A stretch of 64,000 nt of DNA from positions 11,813,654 through 11,877,653 of the forward strand of contig CM082577.2 in the NCBI GenBank assembly GCA_040954595.2, read 5' to 3'. The notes below the pieces were generated by a model that was given only the letters and a program-made list of their open reading frames with translations, was not told the DNA's origin and ran no database searches. Below are positions 6,101-46,453 of the stretch, piece after piece (within the stretch, counting starts at the first letter, position 1; each line of letters opens with the position of its first letter). A program made the translations under genes and the position numbers. The stretch is from Balanoglossus misakiensis. Taxonomy: Eukaryota > Animalia > Hemichordata.

Positions 6101-6744
6101 ATACAGGTACACTTCTGAACAATATTCAAGGGCTTCTCCACTGTAAATGTTCGGCCAACCTGTGCGGTCGGTCAATGGCCACTTAATTACAGAGCTCTTT
6201 GAGAATTATAATAAATATACCAATGAGTACCACTGATACAGAAGGCTTACATACCAGTAGGGAAAACACATCTACCCTGTAACTTGGTGCGTCTTGCCTT
6301 GCTTGCTATTGTTGACAACCGATTTCGCAGCGCCCTTTTTATGTTGGTCTCCTCACAGTACTGTAACCTGCAAAATGCACATTGATGTAAAAGTCAATCA
6401 TATTCCAAACAAGTGCACCTACTGCTCAGTGAGATACAGCTGTATAGGAATAAAGAGTCCAAAATGCAACTACTCGAGTGAAGAATGAATATATAGTATT
6501 ATATTCTCATCCAGACATAGATTCATTTTTTCATAAGAATATGTTTCAGCCTGGAATCAAATATATTTCTTCAAAAGAATGACACAAAAATGTAAAAAAG
6601 CTTGAAGATGCCTGTTCTATAACCAGGTCAGACTGTGAACATTAACAGCAGCTTCAAAAAAGCAACCTTTGGTACATTCATTATTTTAGTCAACTGTTTT
6701 TGAGGAATCGGTCAAAATAAAAGAAACTACAGGCGTCTTACAAG

Positions 6745-7669
6745 TACGTGTATTAGGACGTTGATGTTCTTACGTCCCTCGTACTCATTACTGAGTTGGG
6801 TTAAGAGCTGGATTTCCTCGGTCGCCCACACCGAGGATCGTGTCGTGACTCCGGATGTTGTTGGAGTTACCCGTGGGCAACCCACGTTTCTCTTCGGCCT
6901 TAGGCGGTGGACATTGCACAGGGATGGGAATGCCTGACGTGTTGTCCTAGGCCGGACTTGGTCTTAAATTTCATGTCGCATTCGGTGCACGGGAATGGTT
7001 GTGGGCTTACACTGAAGCCGCTTCGCACCTTGCATTTTGCGTAGTGTGTTGCCACACTTCGCATGCTGTCACTGATGCGATCGCATGCAGAGCATACGTA
7101 CTTGAATGAGTCGTACTTGTGAGAGGATAGGTGACGACGCAAACCTCGGTGATCTTGAAACATCGCTCCAGGACAGAGGTGACATTCAAGAGTCTCCGTA
7201 TTGGGATACGCGATCAAGATGGCTCCCATCCCATCAAGGATGTATCCATCTATATTGCAGTGGTCCCTCCCTACCGCTGCATGGGCCGAAATCGTGTCCT
7301 CTGCTGCAGGCGCCCTCCCCACAGCAGACATCAGGGCCGGGATCGGTTCGTTAACAGTGTCAGTCCGAGTCATTTGTTCATTTTCTGTTACAAGAGGCTT
7401 TGGCTCAGCATTCAGGGAGCAGCACCTCGCTCATGCCATTCCCGCACTCGTTTGAATTTCTTCACTTTGATATTCTGAGCACTGGGCAAGTGCGTATAGT
7501 GGCCGTCCTCGAAAGTTTACCTACGACTTACGTTGGGCTGTAAACCCGCGGTAAGACGCCCCCGAGCGTTAGTTCTCTGATTGGCCCACGCTGTGGTTGA
7601 TACAGTGCGGATACGGTGTGGTCAGATTAACAACTCTCGCCACGAGAAGGCCCTCAGGGGAAGAGAGTC
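6745..7669 (-). mobile_element. 5' fragment of an R2-type non-LTR retrotransposon: 5' UTR, three zinc fingers and a Myb-like domain; no RT or endonuclease
   Basis: ORF 6900..7373 has CHLC..H..H, CSAC..H..C and FPCTECDMKFKTKSGLGQHVRHSHP. Beyond its stop, SVWATEEIQLLTQLSNEYEGRKNINVLI is an R2-type Myb motif. The 5' end begins GACTCTCTT, matching 28S sequence upstream of the R2 site. Confidence 0.85.
7577..7669 (-). ncRNA. HDV-like self-cleaving ribozyme fold at the R2 5' end, possibly degenerate
   Basis: Hand fold: P1 GACUCUC/GAGAGUU with G1-U wobble; P3 GCC/GGC around L3 UUCUCGU; P4 closed by CCAC/GUGG; J4/2 GCCAA; P2 CUGA/UCAG. Confidence 0.65.
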
Positions 7670-7885
7670 TTCAAGAATCACTCTTGCTTCGTCGTATGCC
7701 CCTTCACTTCTAAGTAGAAAGCATCCAACTACTGCTTCTTTGGCAGGACCGCCTAAATATTTCTTCAGGTAATGAATTCTTTCAAGTGGTGGTACACCTC
7801 GCGATTCAACTAGGGTCGTGAATGATGATATCCAATCTGGATAAGCGAATGGGTCTTCCATGAATATTGGTGGTTCGGGTGTAGT
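7670..7885 (-). mobile_element. BEL/Pao LTR retrotransposon gag fragment (DUF1759-like)
   Basis: PEPPIFMEDPFAYPDWISSFTTLVESRGVPPLERIHYLKKYLGGPAKEAVVGCFLLRSEGAYDEARVILE. Confidence 0.8.
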
Positions 7886-8047
7886 AAGTGATGGAGGAGG
7901 TGGAGGAAACGAACGAAAAACTAAATCAGAGTCGCAACGAAACTTAGAAAAAGAAGGATCAGAAAATGAGCGAGAAAGAACAGATGGTTGATAGCAAGAA
8001 AGAGAGGCAGGTGGGGAATTTAAAAAAGGGCGAGACAGATCACGAAC

Positions 8048-8830
8048 AGAAGAGCTACGGGCCAGACTACACCGAGAGGACAGCCCAACAAAAGGAACTC
8101 TAGAGAAAACAGGCAAATCATAAGGACAATCATAAAAAACTGCTAGGATACAGGGAGAGTCTGCTGCTCTGGGAAGAGACATAACTTAAGTCTTAAATAT
8201 ACTAAAAAAATGGCCCGAAATCAGACAAAGAGTTTAAGTAGAAAAAAGAGCCGACCAGGGGTGCTGTATAAAGGTAAATTTGAACTGCTCTCTGCTGCTA
8301 CTGCATTAATCATGTCATTAAATAAATATGGAGACGTGGCATTGTGCATCAAGTTAAACATGTCAATATTATGAACACTGATTTGACTGCTATTTCAAGA
8401 CTGCACATTCCAATAACTGCCGCAAGGCCGCTCTTGCTATTATGTTGACGGTACCTGTGAATAATTTGTTGCCACTCTCGTCTATTCTTGGATATACATA
8501 TCTGTCAAATCAATCACTTCTTCGTCTCAGTTCCCTTTTTCATACATATAGACTGTATGAAGATTGCGGTTACTTCTCTTTTTGGAATAAGTGATATGGC
8601 TATAAAAGGGCAGTTTATGGTTGATTGGAAAAATCACTCCGTTGTTTCATTCTTCTTTTAAATTTATGGTGTTGCTTGGCACAGTCTTGGGATCGTCTGT
8701 TTGCAGTAAGTTGGACATGATTTGATTGTACCGGGTATTTCAGCACTGATTGTGCCATATTAAGTACAACCCAATCCCAATATGATTTGGAGTTGACCTT
8801 GGTCTTTTCTACCTGAAAAAAATAAATAAA
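8048..8830. repeat. Dispersed duplication of ~17733-18490 (with indels), including a minus-strand exon-like piece
   Basis: Long shared blocks such as gctacgggccagactacac and gactgcacattccaat..., plus the shared peptide KVNSKSYWDWVV. Confidence 0.7.
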
Positions 8831-9732
8831 ATTAAAGCTGCAAGCAGCGACGGCGGGGCCCAAGTGGTTTCCATGTCTTTTGGTTCTTGTAAACAAGAAT
8901 TTTGAATATCATATTGTTTTTGTGAAAATGAATATGGCTGCTACATCTAATGACTAATCCACATGACTTGTACAAACTTCAAGTACCCATGTCAGGGATG
9001 ATATTAGAAACATTTCAGTTAAAATGGTGAGTTGCTTCTGAAGAAGGAAATTTTGGAATATTATTTGCTGGTAATCATGTGTTTTGCACAGTGTTTGCAC
9101 AACTTGAAGCGTCGTCGGCTTTTGCATGTGTACTGCCACGTGATCAATCACGATGCTGCGTAAATATGGTAACAGGAACCCGGGTAGTAGTTTATTTACC
9201 TACTACCCGGGTACAGCCTTTTTTTCTCGTGAAAAAGCACATGGGGGCATTCTCTGCTGACAGCTGAACAGTATATCGTGGTTTTTAGTTTTTCTTCTTT
9301 CCTTTTATACAGATTCTACAGAACATCCCATTGTCCTGGAAGTACAACCAGTGCCATGTGGACAGCCATCTCTCCTGTAGATAGAAGAATTCGCCCAATA
9401 TGATTATTGATAATTACAGTGTGGATTTATAATTAATAAAGTTCATTGTCCAACAATTTTCATTTATCCCGGTTATGACTCCCTTGCCATTTCGACCGTG
9501 GGTAAATTTGAGTACAGAATGTATTATCCCCAAGGTTGTTAAAAAATTAAAGTGATACCGCTAGATTTTCGACTGTTCATGAACTCTAGAAAATCGAAAG
9601 TCCCCCCCCCCACCAATACGCTCGTACTGTATATCGTACTGCCATCTCTCCTACCAACAAAACGCTTAATTGTTCGTACGGCATGTCAGTCTTACAGACA
9701 AAATGCTATTATTACCGAAACAACTAGAAATT

Positions 9733-10020
9733 CCCTTACGAAAAAGTTCGATAGAACTTCTATAGCTTTTCAATAAAAATTTCTATTAAGAATCAATAGA
9801 TATTCCATGGAAACTCAATGGAATTTCTATAGAAATTCTATTGACTTCTATGGACTTTTGGCCACTTTTCAATTAAACTTCTATAGAAGAGATATAGATT
9901 TGATTTTCTATTGAACTTCTATAGAAGAGTTATAGATGTGTATTGATTTTCTATAGAAGAGATATAGATTTCAATTGATTTTCTATTGAACTTCTATAAA
10001 AGAGTTATAGATGTGTAATG
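9733..10020. repeat. Array of short palindromic TTCTATAGAA-like motifs following a CCCTTACGAAAA end; probable MITE subterminal repeats
   Basis: Repeated ttctatagaa / ttctattga units. Confidence 0.5.
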
Positions 10021-10401
10021 ATCCTGTATTATCTGGTTACCAAAGACAGAGGGGTGGGATTGGGGCAAAAAGATTGATATTTATAAAAAAAAAATACTTC
10101 ACTGAATACTCGGCATATTCTTTCAGTCAATTGTTTAATATTAACACATAAATGTGCTAAATACAGTGTTGCCTCAGTCAAATTAGTTTTCTGCTGGCTT
10201 TCAGTGAAATATTTGAGAAAAAACCAACATGCTCATCAAATTAAAACTTAACATTTTATTGCAATAAATCAATAAAAAAGGTGACATGAAAAATACAGTT
10301 GAAATAAATAAAGATAAGCAAAACACATAAGTGAAACAGTTAACCACACTACTTGAGTTTTGTTTCGGAGTAAATTTTCATTTTAATATACTGCTCCCAT
10401 A

Positions 10402-10660
10402 CTAAGCACATACCTGAGGGCGGCGTAGAGATCCCGACTCATGATTGCATTCCTTTGCGTCTGTACACTTGTTGTTCACGCTGGACGATGGTTCTATCGA
10501 CGGCTGTGCCTCATCAACTTTGTTTGAAACTGTTGCACTGTCACCGATCGATGGCTCTGCTTCTCGTACTTCATTGGAAGCTGTTGCTGCTTCACCAACA
10601 GCTGGCGAACGTAGAAAGTCAAACAAGAGCCGCTGGCGTTTCGCCATCGCCATCGGCCCA
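10402..10660 (-). pseudogene. Possible hAT transposase N-terminal fragment
   Basis: MAKRQRLLFDFL followed by a low-complexity S/E-rich linker, typical of ZNF862-like hAT N-termini; weak evidence. Confidence 0.3.
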
Positions 10661-10699
10661 TGTTGCTGCGCACGCGGTCTGCAAGTCAAACAGCATGTG

Positions 10700-11172
10700 A
10701 TTTAGATTTTCAGCAAACTCTAATCACATGATATATAATAGTGATTTTTTTGTAATTGATGTTGAATTTTATCAGAAAAGTCACATACAAGCTTCCCTCA
10801 CCTGATGTTCGACTCTTTGCAAACAATTATGGCAGATCATGCTTCCTATAGTATTCAGACCTTTCTGTCCTAATTCAACCAAAACCTGCATTGGGCATGA
10901 TTTTAATGACCTCGAATGACTAGTTGTTGACGGATATATGCAGATCTTGATTCGGCGGCTCTTGTCATAATGAAACCTGCATAAAAATTCACCTTCCTCC
11001 AATGCAGTAAACAATGCATTATCTACCATAGACTCGACGGCGCTCACCACTACATAAATCTTGGTATTGAGACTGTGTACGTGGTGACAAAGCGCATATC
11101 ATCGCCATCGTCAGGTTTGGCGTAGTACTGACTGGCTTCCTTATGAGTGAATGATTTCAAATTTCCAACTTC
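10700..11172 (-). pseudogene. Cys/His-rich exon fragment, probably transposon-derived; duplicated at ~19650-20125
   Basis: EFLCRFHYDK..CIYP..H..CP..ICHNC, with a near-identical second copy. Confidence 0.45.
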
Positions 11173-13681
11173 GAAGTTTCGACCACCCCTCCAGTGATAA
11201 TCGACGAACCATTGTCAAAGAATGCGCACAACTATGCGCAATGCATTTGTACAACGTTTGTAACAACAACAGCAGCAGTAAGTACGGTTGAGGGCGCTTT
11301 TCAAATTAGAGTTTCGTCTGCTGTCTGCTATCAACTTTTTTTCACTGCAAAGTAAAAAAACAACAATATTTGCCCAAATGAACAACAGATTGATAATTCA
11401 AATGGTATTTTGTGCAAAAAAATACTTAATAAATTTGAGAAAAATGGGGGGAAAAACTCGCCGCGCTGCCAAGTTCTTACATGTATGTTGAGTGTGTAAC
11501 GTACGTGTTGTAGTACATGTAGTACCGTTTACTTTTGACGTTTACAAAAACACTTACTTGTTTGGGTATCTTCTATCATTACTGCAATTAAAAACAGCAC
11601 ATCGATCTCCTCCACCCATATTTACCACTATTATAAGTAACTGAACCTGTTATTTGGAAACAAAAATTACCCCGCGCTGCGCGGCCGGCTATCATTCGCA
11701 CAAACGGGACGCTGCACTGTTGTATGTTGCGGGGCAACAGGACAGTGCCCCCAATGCCCCCACAATGCACCACGCGCTTTAAAGATGGCGGTACCCACGA
11801 ACGGACTACCGGTATGGTGTACTAATTAGTCTAGATTGGCATGTGTACTGTTTGCGGTCTTGTTGCTGTTGAGGATTAAATTGTGAGGATTGTAAGGAAG
11901 TTTAAGGTCTGTATGTGTTCTATACTTCTCATTTCATCGACAGTAATACTACAGTCATCTAAGTAAAAGCCCACAAACTGGTTCACATGAAGTTGATGCG
12001 CGCCGCAGATCATACTTACCGGTATAACAACAATAACACAGCCCTGCTAGTGCTTGTTAAAACAGCAACTGTCTCTCGAACGTCATCCAGCTGTAATGTA
12101 AAGGAGCTTGTCAGTGGTTTCATGTTTTTATGATTGCTGCGAGTCCGTATAGGGCTGCATTCGCAAACCCCTCTGGAGGGGGGGGGGGGGAGAATTCAAT
12201 TTGTTCAACCATGCTGGAATCTGCGTACTTTCTTTAATTTCAAGACAGTTCTTACAGTCATTTGGGGAGTTCATTGCCTGGTCAATCAAACAGCACCCCC
12301 TTACAGCTGAATCAGCCTGCAGTTGTGGAAATGAAGATTTAACTCACTTCTGTATTAAGATTCAACGATTAAGCTGGGCTGCTGAGTGCACAGATGAGGG
12401 CCATTTACCCACACGTGGTCTAAGCCAAAATGTATATTGTGTTCATTCATTTATTCATTGCATCAATATATTTTGTCTATCCCCAGCCTCCTGAAATCAT
12501 CTCATCTGCTGTTGGCCTTTAGCCTGTGCCAATTGGCAAACAGAGGCCACGTGGGATTCCTGCCAGCCCACCACGTAAAATTTTTGGTCTACTGGTCGCA
12601 GAGAAGTGTATCTGCCTGTCAACACAGATGCCAGCATGAATATGTGAGTGTCTGTCCTTGTCTTTGCTTAATTGAAAATGCCTACTTTAGATCTGTAATG
12701 AAAATTAAGAAAGTACCCCATTTTTTCTGTGAAATAGACATTTAATTGGCACGCCATCTAGCATCAATTAGTCAGCGTGTATGCACTGAAGCACACACAA
12801 GGGGCTTTGCATGGTACATTGTTTATATTTATTTAAGTATTTGTATTCTGTGTTGGCAGACATTGTAAACTGAGAAGTGAAGGGGGTGTAGAAAATTTTA
12901 TAAAATACATAGCTCAAAGCTGCATTTTAATGAACCCAAAAGCAAATTAACTCAACTACTGGTATGTTGGGGAGGACAAATCTAACCTTCACCGCTCAAA
13001 GTCAGCATTGGGGTGGGGGGGGGGGGGGGCAAGTCTCCTGACCTGTGACACTAGATAAACCAGTCAATGATTGAAAGGTGTTGATGAATTTCGGGGGTGG
13101 GTGTGGGATGAGAGTAAAAATCTTGTCAAAATGAATAAATGCTTGAGACAGATTATTCATTTTGGCGAGTTTATCACTCTCGTGTCTACAAGTGGGATAG
13201 ACGTTGTGTATGGTCGAACATTGATTCACTATATATCCACATGGAGAATAACATAAGCAGTGTCTTGTATCATACATAATTAATGGAAAAAGGGCAGCAA
13301 GAGAGAGACTTTATCCCTTTTAAGTAACCCCACAACACTAGGCAAAACTTCTAGTACCGGTACGGTAGGGCAGCCAGAAGAAACGTCGAGGGGGCGGGGC
13401 AGCTTCATACTGTTTTTTTGTGATCGATGCCACATTGTTTTCGTGATACACCAGGCTGGTAATTCACATTGTTAATTGATGTCATTATTTACTTTTTCAG
13501 GAAATTCACGAATACGAAGGTAATGATCAATCACTTCATTAATTGATACTGAAATTTGCCCGGATACTTTTGATTTGTTTATCTAGTGACCTGAGCATCT
13601 ACAAGAAGCTAAAGTTCTGTAAGTAAATATTACTTAATACATTGTATTTACTTTTGTCCTTGCTTGTTTCTTATTTTGCAG

Positions 13682-16260: not shown

Positions 16261-19200
16261 GTTACTCATTCACAGTCAGTGAAATATTAAAGGAACGTAC
16301 ATGTATTTGAATACTCAATAATATTGGATTGATGACAGAGATATTTGCCAGTATAGGCATTTGCATAATTTTTGTATTAAGTGACTGAGTGTGTTTAGTC
16401 AGTCCCTGTTTCAGATTTATGCAGAAGTTCAGTGTCATCACCAAAATTATCATAGTTATAGAAGCATTTTGCTGTAGTCGTGTGTGAAAAACAGAGTAGT
16501 GCAAGTTCAATATTTGTGACCAATAGAACCAGTAACTTTGACGGTCTTTTGCAAAAGCAGATTGATGGGTTGAGACATACTACTCTTCTTGAAGAGTAGT
16601 AATACAAATGTGACATTCTGTACTTAATTCTGATATATTTAAGGTGACTGGCAAGATTATTTTTATTTGACTCTGATTAATTATATCAACCAGTTATATG
16701 AAACAGGACACTTAATTTGTTTTTAAAGAATCTGTAATAATCTGTCATAAATAATATCTTGTATTTCTTTTGTTTTTATGATTTCTCTTTTCCACTTTTG
16801 TGTTTGTAATTTACCAAAGTAAAACAAGCGCCTTTGCTTATCAAGAAATGTATGCTTTTGTTTTGTGGTTTCGTGAGTGTTGTTTAAAGTTCCAGTTTAC
16901 AATTTTTTTTCTTCAATAAACCTTACTTACTGAACAATCTTTGTATTTGTCTTTTTGTGTGTGTATTACCCCAGGGCCCGTCTTATCAGTGATTAATCCA
17001 AAATACAAGCTATCAAGTTTCCCATTAAGCACCTGCTAATTACTTTAATTGTACCCCATTGACGGATTAACTGAGTAAGTTGATAAAGTAAACATTCGTA
17101 CTGGGTATAACAGTTACATGTATACGGCTTCATGTACCCCAGGAAACAAGCAGCTGTGCCACACACCACTGTACTTTGTGTTGCTGTAGCTTTAGACACA
17201 CAAGCCTGCCACGCAGAGCTGGTGTTGTTTAACCAGCTATTAAATTTTTAATTACCAGTGGCAGGTCAGTGAGCGTCTTTGTCTGTCCGTGTGTCTGTTC
17301 CTGGGCTGACTGAAAGAAGTTGCTTGTCATATGTGTTTGTACAGACAATTTCTGGTCGAAAATAAAATTTTCTAGGACCACTTATAAGACTGCCATGACA
17401 CATGACAGTTTATTGGGCATGTTCCTTGTTAATTATTTTTCATTCCATATTTCTTTATGATTACATCATATCTGCTTGCAATGTCACCTGTAATTTTTAT
17501 TCTGGTGTATCCCTATTTCTGCGTAATCCTCCTTGACACTATTTTTAGTAAGAACTAATCAAACCTACCACTAAACTCTCAAATGTCGGTGATGCAGTTA
17601 GGCTACTACTATAACTACATCTCTAAGAAACCCCTGGCCGTAAAGTGCCTGCATAAATAAAATCTGAAGAGGCTGAACTGAAAAGAAGGCCCATCACTCG
17701 GAAGAGAAGGCGGAAAACAATAATGATAAGAAGAGAATAGCTACGGGCCAGACTACACTGAGAGGACAGACAGCCCATTAAAAGGAACACTAGTAGAGAG
17801 AACAGGCAAATCATAAGGACAATCATAAAAAACATATTTGTCTAAATTATTAAAAGAATTCCCAGAACTTGCTGTCTCTGATGCTAGGATACAGGGAGAG
17901 TCTGCTGCTCTGGGAAGAGTCATAACTTAAGTTTTAAATATACTAAAAAAATGGCCCGAAATCAAAGAGTTTAAGTAGAAAAAGAGCTGACCAGGGGTGC
18001 CGGGTGTACTGTAAACGAACTTTTGGTCACTGCACTGCTGCTGTATTAATTCTGTCGTGTATAAAATAAATATGGAGACATGGCATTGTGCATCAAGTTA
18101 AACATGACAATATTATGAACACTGATTTGACTGCTATTTCAAGACTGCACATTCCAATGACTGCCGCAAGGCCGCTCTTGCTATTATGTTGACGGTACCT
18201 GTGAATAATTTGTTGCCACTCTTGTCTATTCTTGCATATACACATCTGTCAAATCAATCACTTCTTCATCACAGTTCCCTTTTTCATACATATAGACTGT
18301 ATGAATATTGCGGTAGTTCTCTTTTTGGAATAAGTGATATGGCTCTAAAAGGGCAGTTTATGGTTTGATTGGAAAAATCACTCCGTTGTTTCATTCAGTG
18401 GCGAAGCTGCAGTGCTGCCCGAGTATACAACCCAATCCCAATACGATTTGGAGTTGACCTTTAGTCTTTTCCACCTGAAAAATAAAAAAAATATATAAAA
18501 TAAATTAATACCCTCCAAAATAGATGTGAAAAAAATCCACTGATTGATGCTATGTGTAAATAAATGCAGCAACCTAATATTTTTAATTTTTGTTACTATC
18601 AATACAGTAATGACCACTTTGTATTTAACAACCTGGGTTTTGCAGCTCTTAACATTGTATGATAAACCATTCTTCATGTACTCACCAAATCAAATGGCAT
18701 AGGAAACTGAAGACATATGTATCATATCTTACTATTTTGGATCGTGTATGCAGCAACATGTCTTTCCTCCCAGATGTGAAAATGTTCTGCTACTTCTTTG
18801 TCACCATCTTCAATTGCATAGCACAGCTGTCTGAATTCAATTTCCAAGAGGGTGTACCTTGAATCCTTCAGTGATTTACCACCATCTCTGGAAGTTTTTT
18901 ACAATGCATCAAAAACGTAAATGAGATTAATATCTCTATCAGGAGCATTTCTGCATACTTTAGTCCACACGGTGAACATCACATAATAACAAGATCATGA
19001 TTTTGGCATTGTAAAGATTTCTCGCCAGTGCAGACTTTTCAGTGGTGTCACCTCACAAAATCAAGATGGTGGTGTGTGTTTTGTGAGTGATTTTCTGCAG
19101 ATGCGCAGTACAAATGCATATTACCTTGGGAATGATTTTCTTTTCTTTTGGCTTTCATGCATGTACTGGTAGATCTCAAGTAGGTTACTGCCTATTTATT

Positions 19201-20957
19201 ACACAACTTGTCTAAATATAGGTACTTTACCTGCAGTACATGCCAGAACCACAATGTACCGGTTTGATCATAGACCTAATCTTTTCCACATTTTCTGTCC
19301 TGCAGTGGCCTATCTGGCGGTCTGGGTGATGCTCAGTCAGAAGTGGGGCAATATTGAATGTCCTCATCTTCTTAGGTGTTAGGCTTTAACCATGTGATAC
19401 TTACATTACAGTTTGTCTCATGCTCTTCACAGGCAAAGAGTGGTGGGAATGGAACTCAGCAAGAGCTCCTCCCTTTTTGTGCTAATGAAAATGAAAAGTT
19501 ATTATATTAAGCACAGTTGCTAGAAAAGTTTTCTAGTAACCGTGATTTAACTTTAAGTATTGCTGGCCAGTATCCATTCATTTGCCAGTTAAATTTTCAT
19601 ATTTTGAACAGATAAAATTAAAAATCGTACTACCTTTGTGTTACGTGATTTAGATTTTGAGCAAACTCTAATCACATGATATATAATGGTGATTTTTTTC
19701 TCATTGATGTTGAATTTTATCAGAAAAGTCACATACAATTGCAAGCTTCCCTCACCTGATGTTTGACTCTTTGCAAACAATTATGGCAGATCATGCTTCC
19801 TATAGTATTCAGACCTTTCTGTCGTAATTCAACCAAAACCTGCATTGGGCATGATTTTAATGACCTCGAATGACCAGTTGTTGACGGATATATGCAGGTC
19901 TAGATTCGGTGGCTCTTGTCATAATGAAGTCTGCATAAAAATTCACCTTCCTCCACTGCAGCATTCAATGCATATCTACCATAGACGCGACGGCGCTCAC
20001 CACTACATAAATCTTGGTATTGAGACCGTGTACGTGGTGACAAAGCGCATATCATCGCCATCGTCAGGTTTGGCGTAGTATTGACTGGCTTCCTTATGAG
20101 TGAATGATTTCAAATTTCCAACTTACAGCAATCTTGTTGCTTAAGGACGCCGTCATGGTTAGTTCAAAATTTGCGCCACGCTATTGTAATGTTAATTACA
20201 TCCGTTCAGTAAACGTGCGAATTTTGCGGCAAGACTGACTTCCGCATCAAAACATGTATATTGTGTTCATTCATTCATTCATTGCATCAATATATTTTGT
20301 CTATCCCCAGCCTCCTGAAGTCAACTCATCTGCTGTTGGCCTTTAGCCTGTGCCAATTGGCAAACAGAGGCCACGTAATCCGTTGTCGTCAACGTAGCCA
20401 ATTTATCGTCGACTAAACTAGCGTTTAATTACCGTCCTGTGCGTAGTTATTGCCTGGGATCCATGTACACAGCTGTTTTAAAGGGGGACCACACATATGC
20501 AAGATCAATTTCTAATTAAAAGCATATTGAAATTGATACAATTGAAAATAAATAACCACCAGTCTGTGTTTTGACATATGTTAAACATTTCCAGAGGAAC
20601 AAGTGGCTTTGATAGCTTGAATTATGGTTATTCACTTACGCTTTTCCAGGGATTATTTTGCCCTCATGAACATTACTTACTAGGTATTTGAGGTTTTTAC
20701 CCTGGTTTTTAGTGCGGAGTGATTGTAGTTGTAAATGTATCTGCTGTATTTTGCAGAATATTTAGCATGTGAGACTGAGCTTTTCTCCTCAAAAACAGCT
20801 GGGGAGCATTGTAATAAAATATCAGAAAATGTGAAATGAAATTAACTGTGGAGTTGGTTATTAATTAATTAACAAACAAACAAACAAGCAATGTGCAAGG
20901 CAGACTTTACCCAGAGAACAAATTTACTGTCAAATCTGTAATAATATCTAATACCTT

Positions 20958-21457: not shown

Positions 21458-22600
21458 TTACATTCCTCTTGTGTTGATAATAATGTTTGGCCTTTCTGAT
21501 CTGCATTTCAACTGCCTTTGTTTAAATGCAAGTGTCTTTTTGTACATTTTATCATATTGCTTTTCCATTGCCATTGATTTCAGACTTGCTGCTGCACTAC
21601 CACCCCTGGTCAAAGGACAGCCTAAGGCTTCAAGCTTTTTATGTGTTGATTCAGCCAATCCATTATTTAGACGATGAATTGCTGAAGCTACACGTGAAGT
21701 CGCATTGCGAGAGAAATTGACATTTTTAGGTAAGGAAGTACTAATGCCCCGATTCACTGCCTCACACCGTTGAGTATTGGTGCCAAATCTAAGCTTTTCA
21801 AGGCTTTCTTCACTTAATTTTATAGCTATAATATCCCTCAGCAGTATTTCATCATTTTCATTCATGTTGACTTTTGTGAGCCCATAGGGCGACAGATGTA
21901 CAGACCGCTTCATCCAATTCTTTCTTTTCCCACCCTCACAAACGATGGAATTATATCTACACTTTGAGCAGTCTCCCTTATAGCACAAAAGAGTTGCTGC
22001 TGTAACTTTTGGTAGGCGGTCCCCGATTAGTTTTGTGTTTGGCCCATATTTAATGAGTAGTTGTTCCAGAATTTGGTGGCAGCGTGATTTTACATCCATG
22101 GCAAACACTTTCTGGGCAACTGCTCTCTCAGATTTGGTTTCCCCAGGGAACATGTTATCACTAAATGTAGCAGACAGGGTTGCTCTAAACTGGCTTTGAC
22201 CCAGATGGATGGGGTCTGCTAAACGTGTCACATTCCAGAGCGGATGTAAAAATTGAAGACCCTCTTCTAAGCCAGCTGCGCTACGTCCATCGCCATCAGT
22301 GGTGGCATATTTTGTGAGAAGTTCATTGAAGCCAAATTTGAGTCCTAGCTCTTTGCCAATTGTATATTCAGACAATGGCTCATGTGCCTTGAGATTTGCC
22401 GTGCAATTTACATGGTTCCCAGGGCAATGTACATCATATCCTCTCCCCTTAAGCCAAGCCCCTGTCCAACAGAGTTTATTTTGTAGTACCATGCCAATAA
22501 TTTGGTGCTGGTCTGTTTGATCTTCACAACAGATACCTACTGCCTGGGAAGCGGCCTGCCCTAGTTTTTTGCGACTGGCAATCGTATTTGAGTTGTCCCA
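21458..22600 (-). CDS. Kolobok/Mutator-like DDE transposase, C-terminal portion (5'-truncated)
   Basis: NKLC..CPGNH..CTAN, TTDGDGRS, ADPIH, NTQRCEAVNR..SLPKNVNFSRN; the frame extends upstream of the Met to ~22600. Confidence 0.8.
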   Translation of the reverse strand, partial: WDNSNTIASRKKLGQAASQAVGICCEDQTDQHQIIGMVLQNKLCWTGAWLKGRGYDVHCPGNHVNCTANLKAHEPLSEYTIGKELGLKFGFNELLTKYATTDGDGRSAAGLEEGLQFLHPLWNVTRLADPIHLGQSQFRATLSATFSDNMFPGETKSERAVAQKVFAMDVKSRCHQILEQLLIKYGPNTKLIGDRLPKVTAATLLCYKGDCSKCRYNSIVCEGGKRKNWMKRSVHLSPYGLTKVNMNENDEILLRDIIAIKLSEESLEKLRFGTNTQRCEAVNRGISTSLPKNVNFSRNATSRVASAIHRLNNGLAESTHKKLEALGCPLTRGGSAAASLKSMAMEKQYDKMYKKTLAFKQRQLKCRSERPNIIINTRGM

Positions 22601-23550
22601 ACATTGTTCGAGGTTGTCTGCATAGAACTCCGGGAAGGTGGGTGAATATCTGCTGCTGCTAAAAGACTAACTTACCCCCCTACGTCAATTTATATGCACT
22701 TTTAGGGTTTCCTGCATACGTTACCCAATATAATTTAGAAGCCAATAACTCGAAAACGCCCCAGTGCCCAGATGGCAAACAAAGTGAATTTTACTCAGTA
22801 TATGATAGGCTTTCAGAAAAAAAGGGGGGGGGGGGTAAACCTATATACTAGCTCATGGTTTATGAACATTTACTGACTGACCTGTTTCTTAATTGCCAAG
22901 AAATGGCTAGCCATCTTTGTGCTCCTTATCCTTTTTTATTGACCTGGTTTTCTGGTTGTTCAGTGATTTTAGCCCGTGATTTCAATGTTTGATTGAGACG
23001 AGAAAAGCTGAACGAAAGCCCTACATAGTCCTGGCCAACGTCGTCTCACCAACCTTTAACCTTATACAGCCTTACATGTCCAGATGGCTGCCTTCGACAG
23101 CAGAACTATGTTCGTCTGCTGCCCATAATCTGACCCGGTTCTTCACAAAACTGGCAGGTCTTCCTTCCTCGACCGCTTATCCTATTAATGTCTGAAACTT
23201 TTTAAAACTCTGTCTTTAAATAAACAGAATACATAAGAACAATGTTATGAAATTAACAAATACTCAAACGCCTATACTATTGTATGTCAATTATAATAGT
23301 CTAATATACCGGTAGTTTCTATCCAGCAACAAGTGTTCTGTTATCATCTTGAATCATTAACCCACTATAGTTACAGCCGGTAGAATATATATATGCGGTA
23401 TTGATATATTCGCGTTCATCTCAATCGCCAGTAATCCGTTGTCATCAACGTAGCCAATTTATCGTCGACTAAATTAGCGTTTAATTACCGTCCCGTGCAT
23501 AGTTATTGCCTGGGATCCATGTACACAGCTGTTTTAAGTTAGTGTGCTTC

Positions 23551-24859: not shown

Positions 24860-25170
24860 AAACTTAGAACTCGCATTGCTGTGTCTTTCTTCTCCCAATA
24901 ACTTAAAAGATAATTTTAATAAGTCCTACGGTCAGAGAGCTTTTTCGGTATGTGCCCTTTGCTGTGGAATATTGCACTGCCTTCAGAAATTCGTTGTGCC
25001 AGAAATACTTCTTCTTTTAAACGTTGTTTGAAGACCCATCTTTTTAACAAGTTTTACTCGTAATTGTAGTAGTTGTTTTTGTATCTTTTTAATACTTGTG
25101 TTCAGCGCACTGAGACGTTGTGGAGTGCGTTTTTAAGAATTAAATATTATTATTATTATTATTATTATTG
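24860..25170 (+). mobile_element. 3' end of an L2/CR1-group LINE with a 3' stem-loop and (ATT)n tail
   Basis: YGQRAFSVCA..WN.LPSEIRCARNTSSFKRCLKTHLF*, then gcgcact..agtgcgt and ATT repeats. Confidence 0.75.
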
Positions 25171-25425
25171 TTGTTGATACGCGGCACATTGATCAGAGTG
25201 GATAATGGATCCGGGTACAACAACATCTTCGATGATCGGTAGTAGTGTCGCTGCATCACGCCTTTCCACCGTCTGCATGAAGCCAATCGCGGGTTGATAA
25301 AACCGGTCCACCATTCTGAACGCACCCTTCTCTCTTGTGTCGGGGATTGTCCGAGATAATGCTTGCACTTGTGGCAAAACAGACTTTCATCAATCTTAAT
25401 CACAGTGCCCGGGCCGCCTATATGG
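25170..25425 (-). mobile_element. Merlin (ISXO2/IS1595-like) transposase fragment; copies at ~28895-29140 and ~32352-32435
   Basis: IGGPGTVIKIDESLF..K, then FMQTVERRDAATLLPIIEDVVVPGSIIHSDQCAAY. Confidence 0.8.
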
Positions 25426-25728
25426 AAGTTTTCACTATGTTTCCGGGCACAAAATGGAACACTCGGCAGTTAAGTATACCAAATGTGAACATTTGCTGAC
25501 TGACCGGTTTCTTAATTGCCAAGAAACAGCTAGCCATCTATGTGCTCCTTATCCTTTTTTATTGATCTGGTTTTCTGGCTGTTCAGTGATTTTAGCCCGT
25601 GATTTCAATGTTTGATTGAGACGAGAAAAGCTGAACGAAAGCCCTACATAGTCCTGGTCAACATCGTCTCGCCAACCTTTAACCTTATACAGCCTTACAT
25701 GTCCAGATGGCTGCCTTCGACAGCAGAA

Positions 25729-25960
25729 CTATGTTCGTCTGCTGCCCATAATCTGACCCGGTTCTTCATTAAACTGGCAGGTCTTCCTTCCTCGACCGCT
25801 TATCCTATTAATGTCTGAAAACTCCATCTTTAAATACTTCATTTTCCGTGTGCATTGGTCTGGGCTACGAAAACCCTGCTTAGACAAACGCTGTGAGATA
25901 TTAATGATGTATGCAATTCTATCTCTCGATGTTCTGTCAAATTTTTGACGTCTTCGTTCC
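25729..25960 (-). pseudogene. Myb/SANT-like (trihelix) DNA-binding fragment of the Harbinger accessory-protein type; copies in the other units
   Basis: ISQRLSKQGFRSPDQCTRKMKYLKMEF..NRISGRGRKTCQF.E....IMG.R. Confidence 0.7.
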
Positions 25961-26214
25961 AAATCGCTAGAAGACACTTGAAGGAGACACCAGTTCGATG
26001 ATTGCTGGGACTGGTTCTGTGTGGTCCTGTACATGTCCAAAATCAACAGTTTCTATAATCTCAGTTCTATTAGAGAGAAGGAAAAACTTGAATAGACAAG
26101 TAATAAATACATTTCACATATCAAATTATTCCAATTCAACAATAATACGGATGCCTGTGGGTATGACATCTTGTTGTCAGCAAAGCCCTGAAGTTTCCAA
26201 CATGCCAGATTAAT

Positions 26215-26400
26215 TGATGGTTGATATTGTTCTCTTCTATAAATGCCCTCTTGTACTTTTGCTGACATGTTAGGAGTCATATGTCCTGCTGGAATCTGGT
26301 GAGTCGGAAAGTTTGTTTTGATGAATGGTAGTAAATGTGTCTCCAGTATCTTCTGGTAAAATTCGCTATTTATAATGCCTGTAAAGATGCAGATTGCTAA
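26215..26400 (-). mobile_element. Tc1/mariner (DDE_3) transposase fragment; copies at ~29935-30120 and ~33225-33410
   Basis: AICIFTGIINSEFYQKILETHLLPFIK..FP. The 29935 copy has IFTGIMDSKFYQKILE and an FQQD..P.H-like motif. Confidence 0.7.
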
Positions 26401-26824
26401 TTAGCCCCTCTCTTGAAAATTTGCCGCCAACAAATAGACTGTTGTGAAAGCTGATTGCTCACCTTTAATAGAGTTATAAAGGATACTAGTCGAAGGTTTC
26501 GGTTAAGTTTGTAGATCTCTTGGAGTTTGTAGATAAAGCGTGTTGCTCGTCTCTGCTCCTCGAAGGTAGTAAGAGAAAACCATATTCGCCCAAAAGGGTG
26601 GGTATGTTCGATGACGTCATTGTGGGTCTTGTGCAGATCCACAACAAGACCAACGAAAGGAAACTGCAACAACATACAATATGAGTACTTGCAGCCACAA
26701 TAGTACTGATATGTCAGCAATTTTCATACTGATGATTATTTTCACGGAGATGTGAATTATTACTTATCTTTTGTTAAAATACTTTTTTCCACCTACATGT
26801 ACCTATGATTCTGTTTACTTTTTC

Positions 26825-27500
26825 TTCTGGAAAACCCCTCTTCTCTGAGCCCGTTGTTTTGATGTGAACGGTCTTTGCCCCGATGTGTTCAAGTGTGTGG
26901 TTACCATGCATGTCGAATCGCAGGGGTGTTTCATCCATATTGTAGATGGTAGTTTAGCTCTGTGTGGCAGGGCTGTGTTGTTACGGCGAGCCCTCCACCC
27001 TCCACCCATCCACTGTGGGTGGAGGGCTCGCCGTAACAACACAGCCCTGCCACACAGAGCTAGTGGTAGTTGTGCATCTCTCGGAGTTGTATGATGTATC
27101 TGTGGAAATGCTGTCATCTTTTCCTCGAAATCTTTCGGTAGTTTCTGACCGATAGATGTCTTCCCGCGCTTTGACAGTCCGTGGCGACGCTTGAAACTCT
27201 GCAGCCAGCCGTCAGACGCCTTGAATCGGTACCGTTCGTAGCGCCTGACGCTGGAGCTGCTTCCCGGTGACACCATTGCCATTCTTCCGATGAGTGTCGA
27301 CCCACTTCAGCAGTTGATCATCCAGGGTGACGTCTTTCACTGGTCTGCCAGCTCCCTGCATTCGCTTCGCGGCTTTGGACGTGATGGCCAGTTGGTCTTT
27401 TTTCTTGAGCCAGTCTCTAACCCATTTTTTTCACTGATGCCAAAATGGTCAGCAATCTTCCTGTTGCTACCAAACTCGCCTGTTCAATTGTTCTTTCCGA
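26825..27500 (-). mobile_element. pogo/Tigger transposase fragment (CENP-B HTH to start of DDE_1), interrupted by a palindromic MITE; copies at ~30385-31060 and ~33835-33975
   Basis: FKASDGWLQSFKRRHGLSKRGKTSIGQKLP; NYHLSDIYNMDETPLRFDMP..TLEHIGAKTVHIKTTGSEKRGF. Confidence 0.85.
26955..27062. mobile_element. 108-bp palindromic MITE (46-bp perfect arms, TAG...CTA), AcademH-like
   Basis: Arms at 26955-27000 and 27017-27062, flanked by ggtagtt and gtggtagtt. Confidence 0.75.
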
Positions 27501-27654
27501 CGGGTCGGCATAATTAAGTTGAGTGTTGATGAAACAAAGAGAAATGGCGAAAGAGGATTTGGCGATTGATTATTATAATTTATAACAGGTTCTCAATGTC
27601 TTCAATGTTGTATGAAGGTCCCATATGTTGCCTTCAATAGTACTGCTGGCTTTA

Positions 27655-28167
27655 ATAGTACTGCCTTTATGATATATTTCATTAGGTACAGCTGTTTGCC
27701 TTCTTTTGTAATCCTCTCAGTTTTAGTTGGTCCCTGTGTGATTTTTTCCAGGAGAGTTACCTAATAGATGGAGAATGTACCAGTACAGTTAAATAACATA
27801 AGCAGATTTGCTGGTGAAGTTTAATGATAAAAACGCCATTGTTGTCGTGTTGGAAATTTAAAAACAGAGCAAAGAGCTTCATACTGATCAGTATAGTATG
27901 AAGTATTGGTAATAGTACTGCCTTTATGATATATTTCATTAGGTACAGCTGTTTGCCTTCTTTTGTAATCCTCTCAGTTTTAGTTGGTCCCTGTGTGATT
28001 TTTTCCAGGAGAGTTACCTAATAGATGAGAATGTACCGGTACAGTTAAATAACATAAGCAGATTTGCTGGTGAAGTTTAATGATAAAAACGCCATTGTTG
28101 TCACGTTGGAAATTTAAAAACAGAGCAAAGAGCTTCATACTGATCAGTATGGTATGAAGTATTGGTC
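27655..28167. repeat. 257-bp tandem repeat, 2 copies (3 copies at ~31215-31985, 1 diverged copy at ~35520-35775)
   Basis: Period of 257 bp (ORFs 31316 and 31573). The unit spans a CR1-like 3' region and part of an OB-fold-like exon. Confidence 0.85.
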
Positions 28168-28700
28168 TTCAAAACACAGGTATTTTACAAATTTCCTTTG
28201 GGCACTCTCTAACGTTGATATGCGAGACTTAATTTGCCATGGATTCCACACAAAAGAACAATATTCAAGACCATTTCTTGCAATAGATAAGTAAAGTGTT
28301 CCTAAAGTCCACCCTTGATTAAAATTTTGGAATTGCTTTTTAAAAACCCCAGGATATATTGCTAGACATGCTGAGACTTGATTGGAGAATAACTCCCAAA
28401 TCTTTGACCTGGTTTAATTACCCCTTTTAAGGAAGGAATATGCAATACAGTAATTAAAATTAATGAAAGATTTCTTGTTGGTAATAATAATAGAGAAACA
28501 TTTTTGAACATTCAAATCAAGTTTCCTCACCAAATCTCGACTCTGTTAATGTCATCTTGGAGTTTTAAACATTCTGATCATTTGTTAATGTGTCTAAAGA
28601 TTTGTGCATCATCTGCATACCGGTATAACAGACATTTAGAATTTGAACAAATCACAAATGTTTGGTAAATCATATAATTATGTAATTAGTATACTTACTG
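28160..28700 (-). mobile_element. CR1/Jockey-group reverse transcriptase C-terminal fragment; copies at ~31980-32350 and ~35770-36310
   Basis: DLPN...NSKCLLYA(D/G)DAQIFRHI....CLKLQDDINRV..W; NAFRMLGFLK. Confidence 0.7.
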
Positions 28701-30513: not shown

Positions 30514-30621
30514 TAGCTCTGTGTGGCAGGGCTGTGTTGTTACGGCAAGCCCTCCACCCTCCACCCATCCACTGTGGGTGGAGGGCTCGCCATAACAACA
30601 CAGCCCTGCCACACAGAGCTA
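30514..30621. mobile_element. Second copy of the 108-bp palindromic MITE, carried by the segmental duplication
   Basis: Same sequence and flanks, with two substitutions. Confidence 0.75.
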
Positions 30622-35289: not shown

Positions 35290-35430
35290 TCACATTTCTC
35301 TCTTGTTTTGCCACTTTAAAGCCAGCACGTTTCCTCTCCGCCGCCATATTACCTTTCCTTGTTTCAAGGTCCTCTTCAAGGCTTTGAGCATTTCCTTGTG
35401 GTTCCCACGGACAGTACCCGGCACAGTGAC
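35290..35430 (-). mobile_element. piggyBac transposase fragment
   Basis: GTVRGNHKEMLKALKRTLKQGKVIWRRRGNVLALKWQNKREM (GTVRxNR..KWxDKR motif). Confidence 0.75.
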
Positions 35431-35434
35431 TGTA

Positions 35435-35630
35435 TCAAATGATTTTGTGGTTGCATATTGGAATTTGTGAGAACTACCTGACTTCAATGTGGTATGCAAA
35501 TCCCATATGTTTCCTTCAATAGTACTCCTTTTATCTGCAATGATGAACTTCGTGAGGGAAAGCTGTTTACCTTCTTTTGTGTTACTTTCTGTTTTTGATG
35601 GTCCCTGTATGATTGTTTTCCAGGTGAGTT
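35435..35630 (-). pseudogene. OB-fold (RPA/SSB-like) exon fragment
   Basis: IIQGPSKTESNTKEGKQLSLTKFIIADKRSTIEGNIWDLHTTLKSGSSHKFQYATTKSF. Confidence 0.5.
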
Positions 35631-45144: not shown

Positions 45145-45224
45145 GACCCCCGTAACTATGGAACAGAGGCCCTCATTAACAAACCCGAGTGATGTGAGAG
45201 ATGACTAAAAGTATGACTGCTCTT

Positions 45225-45600
45225 ACCTAATAAATGTTCTTGGCCATGATGCACATATACATGAACGGACAACATGTCTTAGGCAGCATGCCCAGTCTTC
45301 TGTTCTGTCGACGATTTCTCGTGGATCCGTCTTAGGATTGGCATATAAAATGTCCATAGGCCACCACACCGGTTTGGTCTCTGGTTTGCTTCACTTGCAT
45401 TTGTTATCCTTTAAAAATGGAACCAATGATCGGAGCGTGTGCAGGTTGACGTGCGAAAGTGATCCACCGCTGTATTCAGGTCGCCTGAGGTCAGGAAGTT
45501 CAATACTCTTGGCACGTGATGAGGTTTCTTCTTGGGACGCGTCCAGATCGGTATGCAGAGAGTGTGATATTATCGACAGAATGTGCTGACTTATTGATGC
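45225..45600 (-). pseudogene. NRF1/EWG-like DNA-binding domain fragment
   Basis: Hand translation: LSHVNLHTLRSLVPFL...KPETKPVWWPMDILYANPKTDPRE....EDWACCLRHVVRSC. Confidence 0.65.
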
Positions 45601-46306: not shown

Positions 46307-46453
46307 TTCTTAATTCCTATTTTATTTCTATACAATAGGATCCATGAAAGTACAAAGCAATACAATCAATGAAAATAATTCAGTGTACACATGGCAATTG
46401 AAACTGGTTGAAGACAGAGACCTTAACATTAACATCAAACTTTATGGTGTTTT

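What the first reader, a model, noticed from the sequence alone, without database searches (positions are those of the whole stretch)
7577..7669. HDV-like ribozyme, with the element boundary at the predicted self-cleavage site
Seen: a nested double-pseudoknot pattern (P1 GACUCUC/GAGAGUU, P3 GCC-UUCUCGU-GGC, J4/2 GCCAA, P2 CUGA/UCAG). GACTCTCTT equals the start of the 13 nt of 28S upstream of the R2 site (GACTCTCTTAAGG), and 28S similarity stops at G1. Known: some R2 ribozymes use this 28S segment as P1 and cleave 13 nt upstream of the insertion site. Inference: this copy derives from a ribozyme-processed RNA. Caveat: P2 is short and a non-canonical GG separates P2 from P3.
Basis: partly seen in the sequence, partly recalled or inferred. 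Interest (0 to 1): 0.7.

Follow-up and report, generated by a model that had tools for sequence, protein, structure and literature searches.

The report
R2 ribozyme relic outside ribosomal DNA
A dead, cut-down copy of an R2 jumping gene that lies outside the ribosomal RNA genes begins, to within two bases, where its own predicted self-cutting RNA (a hepatitis-delta-like ribozyme) would cut, so it is likely a fossil of a ribozyme-trimmed RNA: a tidy new example of a known kind, not a new kind.

Summary
On the minus strand, G7669 opens a 7-bp P1 (G-U first pair), a 3-bp P3 and a 7-nt L3, in HDV order. This core occurs once in the window; 9 of 300 shuffles have any. Downstream lies the N-terminus of an A-clade R2 protein, with three zinc fingers and part of Myb.

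A stronger P2 (nt 10-18 with 102, 104-111) gives -11.9 against -2.0 kcal/mol. It abuts P3 and puts the catalytic C at nt 98 (7572). The ribozyme is then 7669-7559.

A metagenome R2 sitting in 28S (L001) has the same design, with 6 of 8 P2 pairs changed on both sides.

Contigs of the same sample show the upstream flank is a multi-copy gag-like repeat. Its consensus leaves the window below 7668, so the junction is at G1 within a 2-nt GA overlap.

The copy is dead: it is frameshifted, stops inside Myb at about 6747 and has no RT. Cleavage is untested, no rDNA parent was seen and no RNA run was listed.

Verdict: a new member of a known kind (-13-type R2 ribozymes). Interest is modest.

The parts
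7559..7669 (-). Predicted HDV-like ribozyme, nt 1-111 (nt n = 7670-n); the predicted cut lies 5' of G7669
   Evidence: Helices listed; the full descriptor hits once in the window and in 0 of 300 shuffles
7661..7669 (-). 28S-derived leader GACTCTCTT (28S -13 to -5). Its first 7 nt are the P1 5' strand. G7669 and A7668 are also shared with the flanking repeat.
   Evidence: Identical to L001:115-123, which lies in a eukaryotic LSU rRNA match; repeat contigs align down to 7668
7632..7638 (-). P1 3' strand GAGAGUU (nt 32-38)
   Evidence: 7 of 7 pairs with nt 1-7
7639..7651 (-). P3 (19-21/29-31) with L3 UUCUCGU (22-28). C24 (7646) pairs with G39 (7631) as a 1-bp P1.1.
   Evidence: CCUUCUCGUGG matches 10 of 11 letters of the motif CCUCCUCGUGG, quoted as the most conserved R2 5' sequence in PMC5035012.
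7652..7660 (-). Revised P2 5' strand (nt 10-18)
   Evidence: 8 of 8 pairs with 104-111, plus G18-C102; duplex -11.9 kcal/mol
7559..7568 (-). Revised P2 3' strand (C102, G103 bulged, 104-111)
   Evidence: Given the core, a P2 of 8 bp or more behind C-N-R-A occurs in 7 of 5000 shuffled tails.
7576..7626 (-). P4: 44-48/90-94, 59-63/81-85, 65-68/76-79
   Evidence: Minimum-energy fold of nt 39-97 taken alone
7569..7575 (-). J4/2 GAACUAA; predicted catalytic C98 = nt 7572
   Evidence: C-N-R-A placed before P2. L001 has GAAC at the same spacing. The catalytic role is inferred.
7430..7488 (-). 28S-like relic inside the R2 5' UTR (aligns to 28S -81 to -21)
   Evidence: 28 of 30 in the best block, E 4e-7 against the whole window. 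Local alignment score 65 against a maximum of 36 in 500 shuffles.
6903..7430 (-). R2 ORF start with three zinc fingers; likely ATG at 7373
   Evidence: 9nl2_A R2 protein E 5e-9 and R2Tg 9dou_A E 2.8e-6; P0001 57% identity over 101 aa
6747..6963 (-). Frameshifted continuation (first part of the Myb domain). R2 likeness ends at about 6747.
   Evidence: R2 chains aa 120-152, E 0.0045. P0001 aa 126-182. A sister copy reads on differently below 6755 and has 4 extra nt after 6921.
7668..7884 (-). Flanking gag-like repeat fragment (weak DUF1759 match at 7673-7828). It is about 83% like a contig family with 25-40 times the word depth of the neighbouring contigs.
   Evidence: Pfam E 0.0064, below the cut-off; depth and loose ends

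Best explanation
Minus strand 7669-6747 is the first ~922 nt of a dead, truncated A-clade R2 retrotransposon copy lying outside rDNA. Its first ~110 nt are predicted to fold into an HDV-like ribozyme that would cut 5' of G7669, so the copy was likely made from an R2 RNA already trimmed at that site.

Shown:
- The R2 protein homology.
- The helices.
- The 9-nt 28S leader.
- A junction with a gag-like repeat at G1, uncertain by 2 nt.
- The frameshifts and the truncation.

Inferred working in the rDNA parent: RNA polymerase I co-transcribes 28S and R2. 28S bases -13 to -7 (GACUCUC) pair with the R2-encoded GAGAGUU as P1. P3/L3, a 1-bp P1.1, an 8-9-bp P2 and P4 complete the nested double pseudoknot. 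C98 in J4/2 acts as the general acid or base, and the RNA is freed with 9 nt of 28S at its 5' end.

Inferred origin of this copy: complementary DNA of that RNA ran to the 5' end. It was then joined through a GA microhomology to a gag-like repeat, either to its DNA at a break or to its RNA by a template jump. The 3' part is missing, either because synthesis started internally or because of a later deletion.

Here and now the ribozyme most likely has no role, though all its helices are intact.
For: R2 identity:
- The best PDB matches of the ORF are R2 proteins, across three fingers and Myb.
- P0001 is a 1143-aa RT-bearing protein, 57% identical over the fingers, that aligns only up to its aa 182.

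Fold:
- P1 7 of 7, P3 3 of 3, P2 9 of 9 (with one bulge), P4 14 of 14 standard pairs.
- The core is unique in the window and is found in 9 of 300 shuffles. The full descriptor is found in 0 of 300.
- Given the core, a P2 this long occurs in 7 of 5000 shuffled tails.

Comparator:
- L001 is an R2 with an RT ORF sitting in eukaryotic LSU rRNA.
- It has the same 28S...CTT|R2 junction, the same P1, J1/2 UU, P2 with a 1-nt bulge, 3-bp P3, L3 U.CUCGU, J1/4 GYUAA and J4/2 GAAC plus 5 nt.
- 6 of 8 P2 pairs and 1 of 3 P3 pairs differ on both sides and stay paired.

Literature:
- PMC3774820 (Results and Discussion read) reports R2 ribozymes that use 28S as P1 and cut at -13 in Nasonia vitripennis and flour beetle B.
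- PMC11331408 (passages) calls the beetle element A-clade.

Boundary:
- Repeat-family contigs align 7884-7668 and then read on as ...ILEERYGNSFA, while the window switches to the R2 leader.
- A random breakpoint would fall in this 3-position slot about once in a thousand (my estimate).
Against: - No cleavage assay exists, and no RNA run was listed for this organism.
- No rDNA-resident parent or second copy of the ribozyme was seen at 80% likeness or more. Contigs resembling human rDNA may have been filtered out.
- There is only one comparator, and it was fetched with a pattern that fixes P1' and four L3 letters. P1 and L3 agreement is therefore by construction.
- P1.1 has one pair only (U23/U40 mismatch), and G103 is bulged.
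- The plain minimum-energy fold lacks P1 and is unremarkable: z = -1.48, and 19 of 200 shuffles fold as well.
- No Rfam family matches. Rfam also misses the ribozyme of L001.
- The GA overlap leaves the RNA 5' end uncertain by 2 nt.
- A 3'-truncated R2 is not what target-primed reverse transcription normally yields.
Confidence: 0.72

Rival explanations
1. One reading: P2 = CUGA/UCAG (13-16/90-93), J4/2 = GCCAA with C86 or C87 catalytic, and the ribozyme ends at 7577.
For: The four pairs exist and C-C-A-A directly precedes the 3' strand. MAFFT aligns the P2 3' strand of L001 (GCCGAUC) with the window's GCCAAUC.
Against: - The duplex is only -2.0 kcal/mol, against -11.9 for the alternative.
- With P3 enforced, the fold reaches -20.6 against -28.9 kcal/mol.
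- Two unpaired G separate P2 from P3.
- PMC3774820 describes R2 P2 stems of at least 5 bp.
- The same UCAG pairs with 45-48 as the base of P4.
- In L001 the matching letters pair with GAUCGGC, which the window lacks.
Confidence: 0.1
2. The ribozyme is real, but the boundary at G1 is a coincidence of a DNA-level rearrangement or deletion of an rDNA/R2 fragment. It would not be the end of a processed RNA.
For: The locus is rearranged: R2 is cut at about 6747, single-copy DNA follows, and a segmental duplication ends at 8044. The junction has only 2 nt of overlap.
Against: The breakpoint falls within 2 nt of the site fixed independently by P1 geometry and by published -13 cleavage. It keeps exactly the 28S leader that a cleaved RNA would carry.
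Confidence: 0.1
3. It is a chance look-alike with no ribozyme ancestry.
For: No Rfam match. The minimum-energy z-score is not significant. The descriptor was designed after the fact.
Against: The fold sits exactly where R2 elements carry their ribozyme, directly upstream of an R2 ORF. The full descriptor hits in 0 of 300 shuffles. L001 has the same design. The core matches 10 of 11 letters of the R2 core motif.
Confidence: 0.04

Closest known systems
R2 ribozymes that cut at 28S -13: Nasonia vitripennis R2 and Tribolium castaneum R2-B (TriCasB, A-clade). Sources: Eickbush, Burke and Eickbush 2013, PMC3774820 (Results and Discussion read); PMC11331408 (passages).
   Same: An HDV-like fold at the R2 5' end. 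The P1 5' strand is supplied by 28S from -13. The element is A-clade, with three zinc fingers as in TriCasB. A 28S leader is left on the RNA.
   Different: - Their sequences could not be read here: the figures and supplements were not available. Likeness beyond P1 is therefore untested.
- This copy is outside rDNA, truncated and dead.
- Its junction lacks the last 4 nt of 28S (AAGG), so the cut lies 9 nt before the junction.
L001, an R2 in 28S on metagenome contig Ga0105211_1000216
   Same: Same junction type, and the same helix order, lengths and spacers. Similar J1/4 and J4/2. P2 and P3 co-vary.
   Different: The L001 protein has one zinc finger before Myb, which is a different R2 clade. Its P4 is short and its P1.1 has 2 bp. 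It is rDNA-resident and has an RT ORF. It is also untested at the bench.
Vertebrate R2 ribozymes that cut at -28: zebra finch and ZoAl (predicted), medaka R2Ol (PMC3774820; PMC11331408 and PMC6795142, passages)
   Same: R2 elements whose HDV-like 5' ribozyme uses upstream 28S for P1; the two bird elements are A-clade.
   Different: Those pair with -28 to -22 and leave 28 nt of rRNA. This one pairs with -13 to -7.
HDV genomic and antigenomic ribozymes (features recalled, and as summarised in PMC3774820)
   Same: Nested double pseudoknot, G1-U wobble, 7-bp P1, 3-bp P3, 7-nt L3 with U...C.CG, and a C in J4/2 followed by purine-A.
   Different: The P1 strand is borrowed from host rRNA. P1.1 has 1 bp. 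P2 has a bulge after its first pair. P4 is long and branched by an internal loop.
[quoted passage not shown]
   Same: R2 sequence outside the 28S site.
   Different: Those are families. This is one single-copy fragment, and no sign of its own mobility was found.

Membership tests
HDV-like self-cleaving ribozymes | Nested double pseudoknot in the order P1, P2, P3, L3, P3', P1', (P1.1), P4, J4/2, P2' | tested here: met
   All helices are present in that order. The descriptor hits once in the window and in 0 of 300 shuffles.
HDV-like self-cleaving ribozymes | P1 of 6-7 bp that starts at the cleavage site with G1-U and is followed directly by P1.1 | tested here: met
   7 of 7 pairs with G1-U38. 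C24-G39 forms a single P1.1 pair; the second pair (U23/U40) is missing.
HDV-like self-cleaving ribozymes | Conserved L3/P3 active-site letters | tested here: met
   CCUUCUCGUGG against CCUCCUCGUGG as quoted in PMC5035012: 10 of 11. The L3 U and G said to be conserved in PMC3774820 are present.
HDV-like self-cleaving ribozymes | Catalytic C in J4/2 just before the P2 3' strand | tested here: inconclusive
Which C acts, if any, needs a bench test.
HDV-like self-cleaving ribozymes | Self-cleavage in Mg2+ 5' of G1 | not testable with these tools
HDV-like self-cleaving ribozymes | Match to a curated Rfam model | tested here: inconclusive
   There are 0 matches at gathering score and only unrelated weak hits at E up to 10. 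The same library also misses the ribozyme of the rDNA-resident L001, so the blank says little.
HDV-like self-cleaving ribozymes | Covariation that supports the helices | tested here: inconclusive
   Against one comparator, 6 of 8 P2 pairs and 1 of 3 P3 pairs change on both sides and stay paired. Two sequences are too few for statistics.
R2 non-LTR retrotransposons | R2-type N-terminal zinc fingers and Myb | tested here: met
R2 non-LTR retrotransposons | Reverse transcriptase and C-terminal endonuclease | tested here: not met
   Likeness stops at aa 182 of the 1143-aa relative. No RT family was found among the 92 ORFs scanned, out of 122 ORFs of 90 aa or more. This is a fragment, not a whole element.
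R2 non-LTR retrotransposons | Insertion at the R2 site of 28S | tested here: not met
   The upstream flank is a gag-like repeat, not 28S. Only 9 nt of 28S are present.
-13-type R2 ribozymes | P1 5' strand made of 28S -13 to -7 | tested here: met
   GACUCUC is identical to L001:115-121 in 28S. The -13 class is described in PMC3774820.

The most novel reading that the evidence does not exclude
The locus is a genomic snapshot of R2 reverse transcriptase at work off target. Complementary DNA ran to the ribozyme-cut 5' end of an R2 RNA. It then jumped, through a 2-nt overlap, onto the RNA of a gag-bearing retroelement, making a chimeric retrocopy outside rDNA. The R2 lineage itself is a hybrid: a -13 ribozyme head sits upstream of an internalised 60-nt copy of 28S (-81 to -21), left by an older 5' end.
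Probability: 0.15. Interest if true: 0.5.

Novelty: new member of a known kind. Interest (0 to 1): 0.3.

Why it matters
R2 ribozymes and their -13 and -28 cut sites are textbook for this element. The fold itself therefore adds only another member.

What the locus adds is natural evidence for the cut site. [quoted passage not shown] It also shows that the 5' junction formed through a 2-nt microhomology, as the published model for second-strand priming expects.

The corrected P2 and catalytic C matter for anyone who would test or reuse this ribozyme, for instance as a 5' module for R2-based gene insertion.

The 28S-like stretch inside the 5' UTR is a small unexplained extra. It may bear on how R2 5' ends are rebuilt.

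Tried and rejected
- The whole genome of the window is not held.
- Sequencing runs: three DNA contig sets of one sample were listed, and no RNA holder was listed.
- Laying the three contig sets found no joint or empty-site contig over 6500-7900. It found no second copy of the ribozyme at 80% likeness or more. X3 laid nothing.
- Pattern scans for 28S + L3 + P1' gave 0 loci in viral contigs and 0 in prokaryote genome contigs. Metagenomes gave 1.
- The supplements of PMC11331408 and PMC3774820 could not be read. The published -13 ribozyme sequences therefore could not be compared, and they may bear on the P2 question.
- MAFFT of the two ribozymes misaligned the 3' halves. The pair table was therefore made from explicit helix coordinates.
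- The continuation of the repeat family was sought in the window with up to 3 mismatches and gave 0 matches. The rest of the repeat does not follow the R2 fragment.
- The idea that 6746-6673 is an R2 3' tail at a 28S-like target was dropped. Its depth equals that of the window's own contig alone, and the likeness to the 28S target, judged by eye from memory, is weak.
- A second, -28-type ribozyme behind the 28S-like relic was looked for by eye and with the core descriptor. None was found.
- Earlier notes of this scan hold nothing for this genome.

Full report
WHAT IS THERE

Read on the minus strand, the window from G7669 runs GACUCUC UU CCCCUGAGG GCC UUCUCGU GGC GAGAGUU G.... Nucleotide n of the element is window base 7670-n.
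- P1 (1-7/32-38) has 7 of 7 standard pairs and opens with G1-U38.
- P3 (19-21/29-31) has 3 of 3 pairs.
- L3 is UUCUCGU.
- C24 can pair with G39 as a one-pair P1.1.
- The string CCUUCUCGUGG differs by one letter from CCUCCUCGUGG. Kojima et al. 2016 (PMC5035012, passages) quote that string as the most conserved 5' sequence of fly and zebra-finch R2.

IT IS AN R2 5' END

The ORF 7430-6903 (minus) carries three zinc fingers.
- Among solved structures its best match is an 'R2 retrotransposon protein' (9nl2_A, E 5e-9, query 82-172 on chain 13-102), and it also matches R2Tg (9dou_A, E 2.8e-6). The remainder of the 76 matches at E up to 1 include one further R2 chain (9nl3_A, E 7.9e-6); the others shown are general C2H2 proteins.
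- The next frame (6963-6730) matches the same R2 chains at aa 120-152 (E 0.0045 to 0.048). The 27 TAL-repeat rows in that call have no stretch that passes on its own and are artefacts.
- One longer relative was found in the 5.8-billion-protein search. P0001 is 1143 aa and carries Pfam RT. It is 57% identical over 101 aa of the fingers.
- The window follows P0001 only to aa 182, inside Myb.
- A sister R2 copy in the same sample is 87% alike over 6755-7030. It has 4 extra bases after 6921 and one base fewer at 6769. Below 6755 it reads on as ...NVLIQEHLPNIRR, while the window turns to unrelated single-copy sequence.

So the R2 part is about 922 nt (7669 to about 6747). It consists of a 296-nt 5' UTR (likely ATG at 7373) and about 180 frameshifted codons. 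No RT family was found among 92 ORFs scanned, out of 122 ORFs of 90 aa or more. The 30 left out were 26 overlapping ORFs in the 46.9-55.2 kb repeat block and 4 at the finding, two of which had been scanned.

THE FOLD, CORRECTED

The plain minimum-energy fold instead pairs 11-17 with 104-110.
- Written out, P2 is C10-G111 through G17-C104 (8 of 8 pairs, one G-U), plus G18-C102 with G103 bulged. Its duplex energy is -11.9 kcal/mol, and it abuts P3 as in HDV.
A distal hairpin follows (59-63/81-85 and 65-68/76-79). This is the minimum-energy fold of nt 39-97 taken alone.
- J4/2 becomes GAAC98UAA, so the predicted catalytic C is nt 7572 and the ribozyme ends at 7559/7560.

CHANCE

- A descriptor of the core (P1 with G-U, P3, L3 U.C.CG.) hits once on both strands of the window, at 7669. 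It hits in 9 of 300 dinucleotide shuffles.
- Adding P1.1, C-N-R-A and a P2 of 6 bp or more gives the same single hit (C98, 8-bp P2) and 0 of 300 shuffles.
- Given the core, shuffling the downstream 121 nt gives a P2 of 8 bp or more behind C-N-R-A in 7 of 5000 trials.
- The descriptor was written after seeing the sequence, so these figures are generous.

Against the fold:
- The ordinary minimum-energy fold has no P1, and its z-score is -1.48. 19 of 200 shuffles fold as well. Nested folding cannot show a pseudoknot.
- Rfam gives nothing: 0 matches at gathering score and two unrelated weak hits in each. It also gives nothing for the ribozyme of L001, which sits in a clear LSU rRNA match (100.5 bits). 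The blank is therefore uninformative.

A COMPARATOR

A pattern made of 28S -18 to -5, a gap of 0-30, four L3 letters and GAGAGT found the following:
- 0 loci in viral contigs;
- 0 loci in prokaryote genome contigs;
- 1 locus in metagenome contigs, L001.

L001 reads 28S...TATGACTCTCTT, then an R2 with one zinc finger, Myb and RT in a 647-aa open frame. As in the window, the last four 28S bases before the canonical site are absent at the junction.

The pattern fixed P1' and L3. The rest was free, and it matches the window's revised design:
- J1/2 is UU.
- P2 has 7 bp, then one more pair (C17-G73) after a bulged A.
- P3 has 3 bp, and L3 is UGCUCGU.
- J1/4 is GCUAA (window GUUAA).
- J4/2 is GAAC plus 5 nt (window the same).
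- 6 of 8 equivalent P2 pairs and 1 of 3 P3 pairs differ on both sides and remain standard pairs.

This supports the revised P2. One comparator is no statistics.

THE BOUNDARY

Contigs of three runs of one sample, probably the source of the window, were laid on 6500-7900.
- The R2 part has the word depth of its own contig only: 24.8 in X1 and 75.2 in X2.
- The stretch 7675-7862 has depths of 620-710 in X1 and 2600-2880 in X2. The tool warns that depth is no copy number, so I say only that the flank belongs to a multi-copy family.
- That family's contigs align 7884-7668 (36 differences in 217) and then leave the window. On the minus strand they read ...CTTGAAGA and go on with codons for ERYGNSFAVT, the continuation of a gag-like frame.
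- The window's frame 8185-7625 has a weak DUF1759 match ending at 7673 (E 0.0064, below Pfam's cut-off).
- G7669 and A7668 are common to the repeat and to the R2/28S leader. From 7667 on, the window is R2. The junction is therefore at G1, A2 or C3.
- The bases upstream of G7669 do not resemble the 28S of L001.

HOW IT FITS WHAT IS KNOWN

Eickbush, Burke and Eickbush 2013 (PMC3774820; Results and Discussion read) report the following:
- R2 5' ends fold as HDV-like ribozymes.
- Many use upstream 28S as the P1 strand.
- Cleavage lies at the junction or 9-36 nt upstream: -28 most often, and -13 in Nasonia vitripennis and flour beetle B.
- P1 is 6-7 bp, P2 is at least 5 bp, and P4 and J1/4 vary.
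- 5' junctions form by annealing or by microhomology.

PMC11331408 (passages) calls the beetle -13 element A-clade and predicts -28 for an avian A-clade R2. PMC6795142 (passages) reports -28 for medaka R2Ol.

The window's element is thus a further -13-type ribozyme on an A-clade R2. A copy that begins at G1, with a 2-nt overlap to its flank, is what a cDNA copied to the end of a cleaved RNA and joined by microhomology would look like.

WHAT REMAINS OPEN

1. Cleavage is untested.
2. No rDNA parent was seen. Junction contigs may have been filtered for likeness to human rDNA.
3. The copy lacks its 3' three quarters, and the repeat does not resume after it. The possibilities are an insertion followed by a deletion, or a chimeric cDNA made by an internal start and a template jump onto gag RNA. 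I cannot tell these apart.
4. Inside the 5' UTR, 7488-7430 aligns to 28S -81 to -21. The best block is 28 of 30 (E 4e-7). The local score is 65 against at most 36 in 500 shuffles.
   - The published model of 28S duplications places such relics in J1/2, upstream of the core. This one lies downstream of the whole ribozyme.
   - Fish R2s with 28S-like 3' UTR pieces are known (PMC5035012, section 14), but I found no 5' UTR precedent in the texts read.

Notes from other windows of this scan describe orphan R2 ribozymes outside rDNA that start at their cut site. They are unchecked leads and no support.

VERDICT

This is a real, well-formed relic of a known kind. Novelty: a new member of a known kind. 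Interest is about 0.3.

Noticed in passing
window 7430-7488 (minus strand): A 59-nt stretch of the R2 5' UTR, 70 nt downstream of the ribozyme, aligns to 28S -81 to -21 (28 of 30 in its best block, looser afterwards). It is too diverged to be fresh 28S, and the published J1/2-duplication model does not explain it.
   Followed up: partly
window 7668-7884, possibly up to about 8043 (minus strand): A gag-like (weak DUF1759) fragment, about 83% like a contig family with 25-40 times the word depth of neighbouring single-copy contigs. The family consensus reads on as ...ILEERYGNSFAVT where the window switches to R2.
   Followed up: partly
window 6755-7089: Other R2 copies exist in the same sample. 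One contig is 87% alike over 6755-7030 and continues into Myb. Another (7001-7089, 3 differences, about three times single-copy depth in X2) diverges upstream of 7089. Neither covers the ribozyme.
   Followed up: partly
window 8044-12552 and 17730-20376: Colinear blocks 84-97% alike (8044-8652/17730-18396, 10697-11171/19645-20124, 12427-12552/20251-20376). This is a segmental duplication whose lower edge (8044) lies close to the start of the gag-like fragment.
   Followed up: partly
L001:115-195 (metagenome contig Ga0105211_1000216): An rDNA-resident R2 (one zinc finger, Myb, RT) with an 81-nt predicted HDV-like ribozyme of the -13 type. No Rfam family detects it.
   Followed up: partly
window 21461-22666; 25100-36400; 43600-54500: A Mutator-like transposase ORF (E 7e-26). 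Tandem units of about 3.3-3.7 kb with Myb/SANT-like and Tc5 HTH ORFs. A block of direct and inverted repeats with TatD-DNase-domain ORFs, including a 678-aa open frame at 51461-53494.
   Followed up: no
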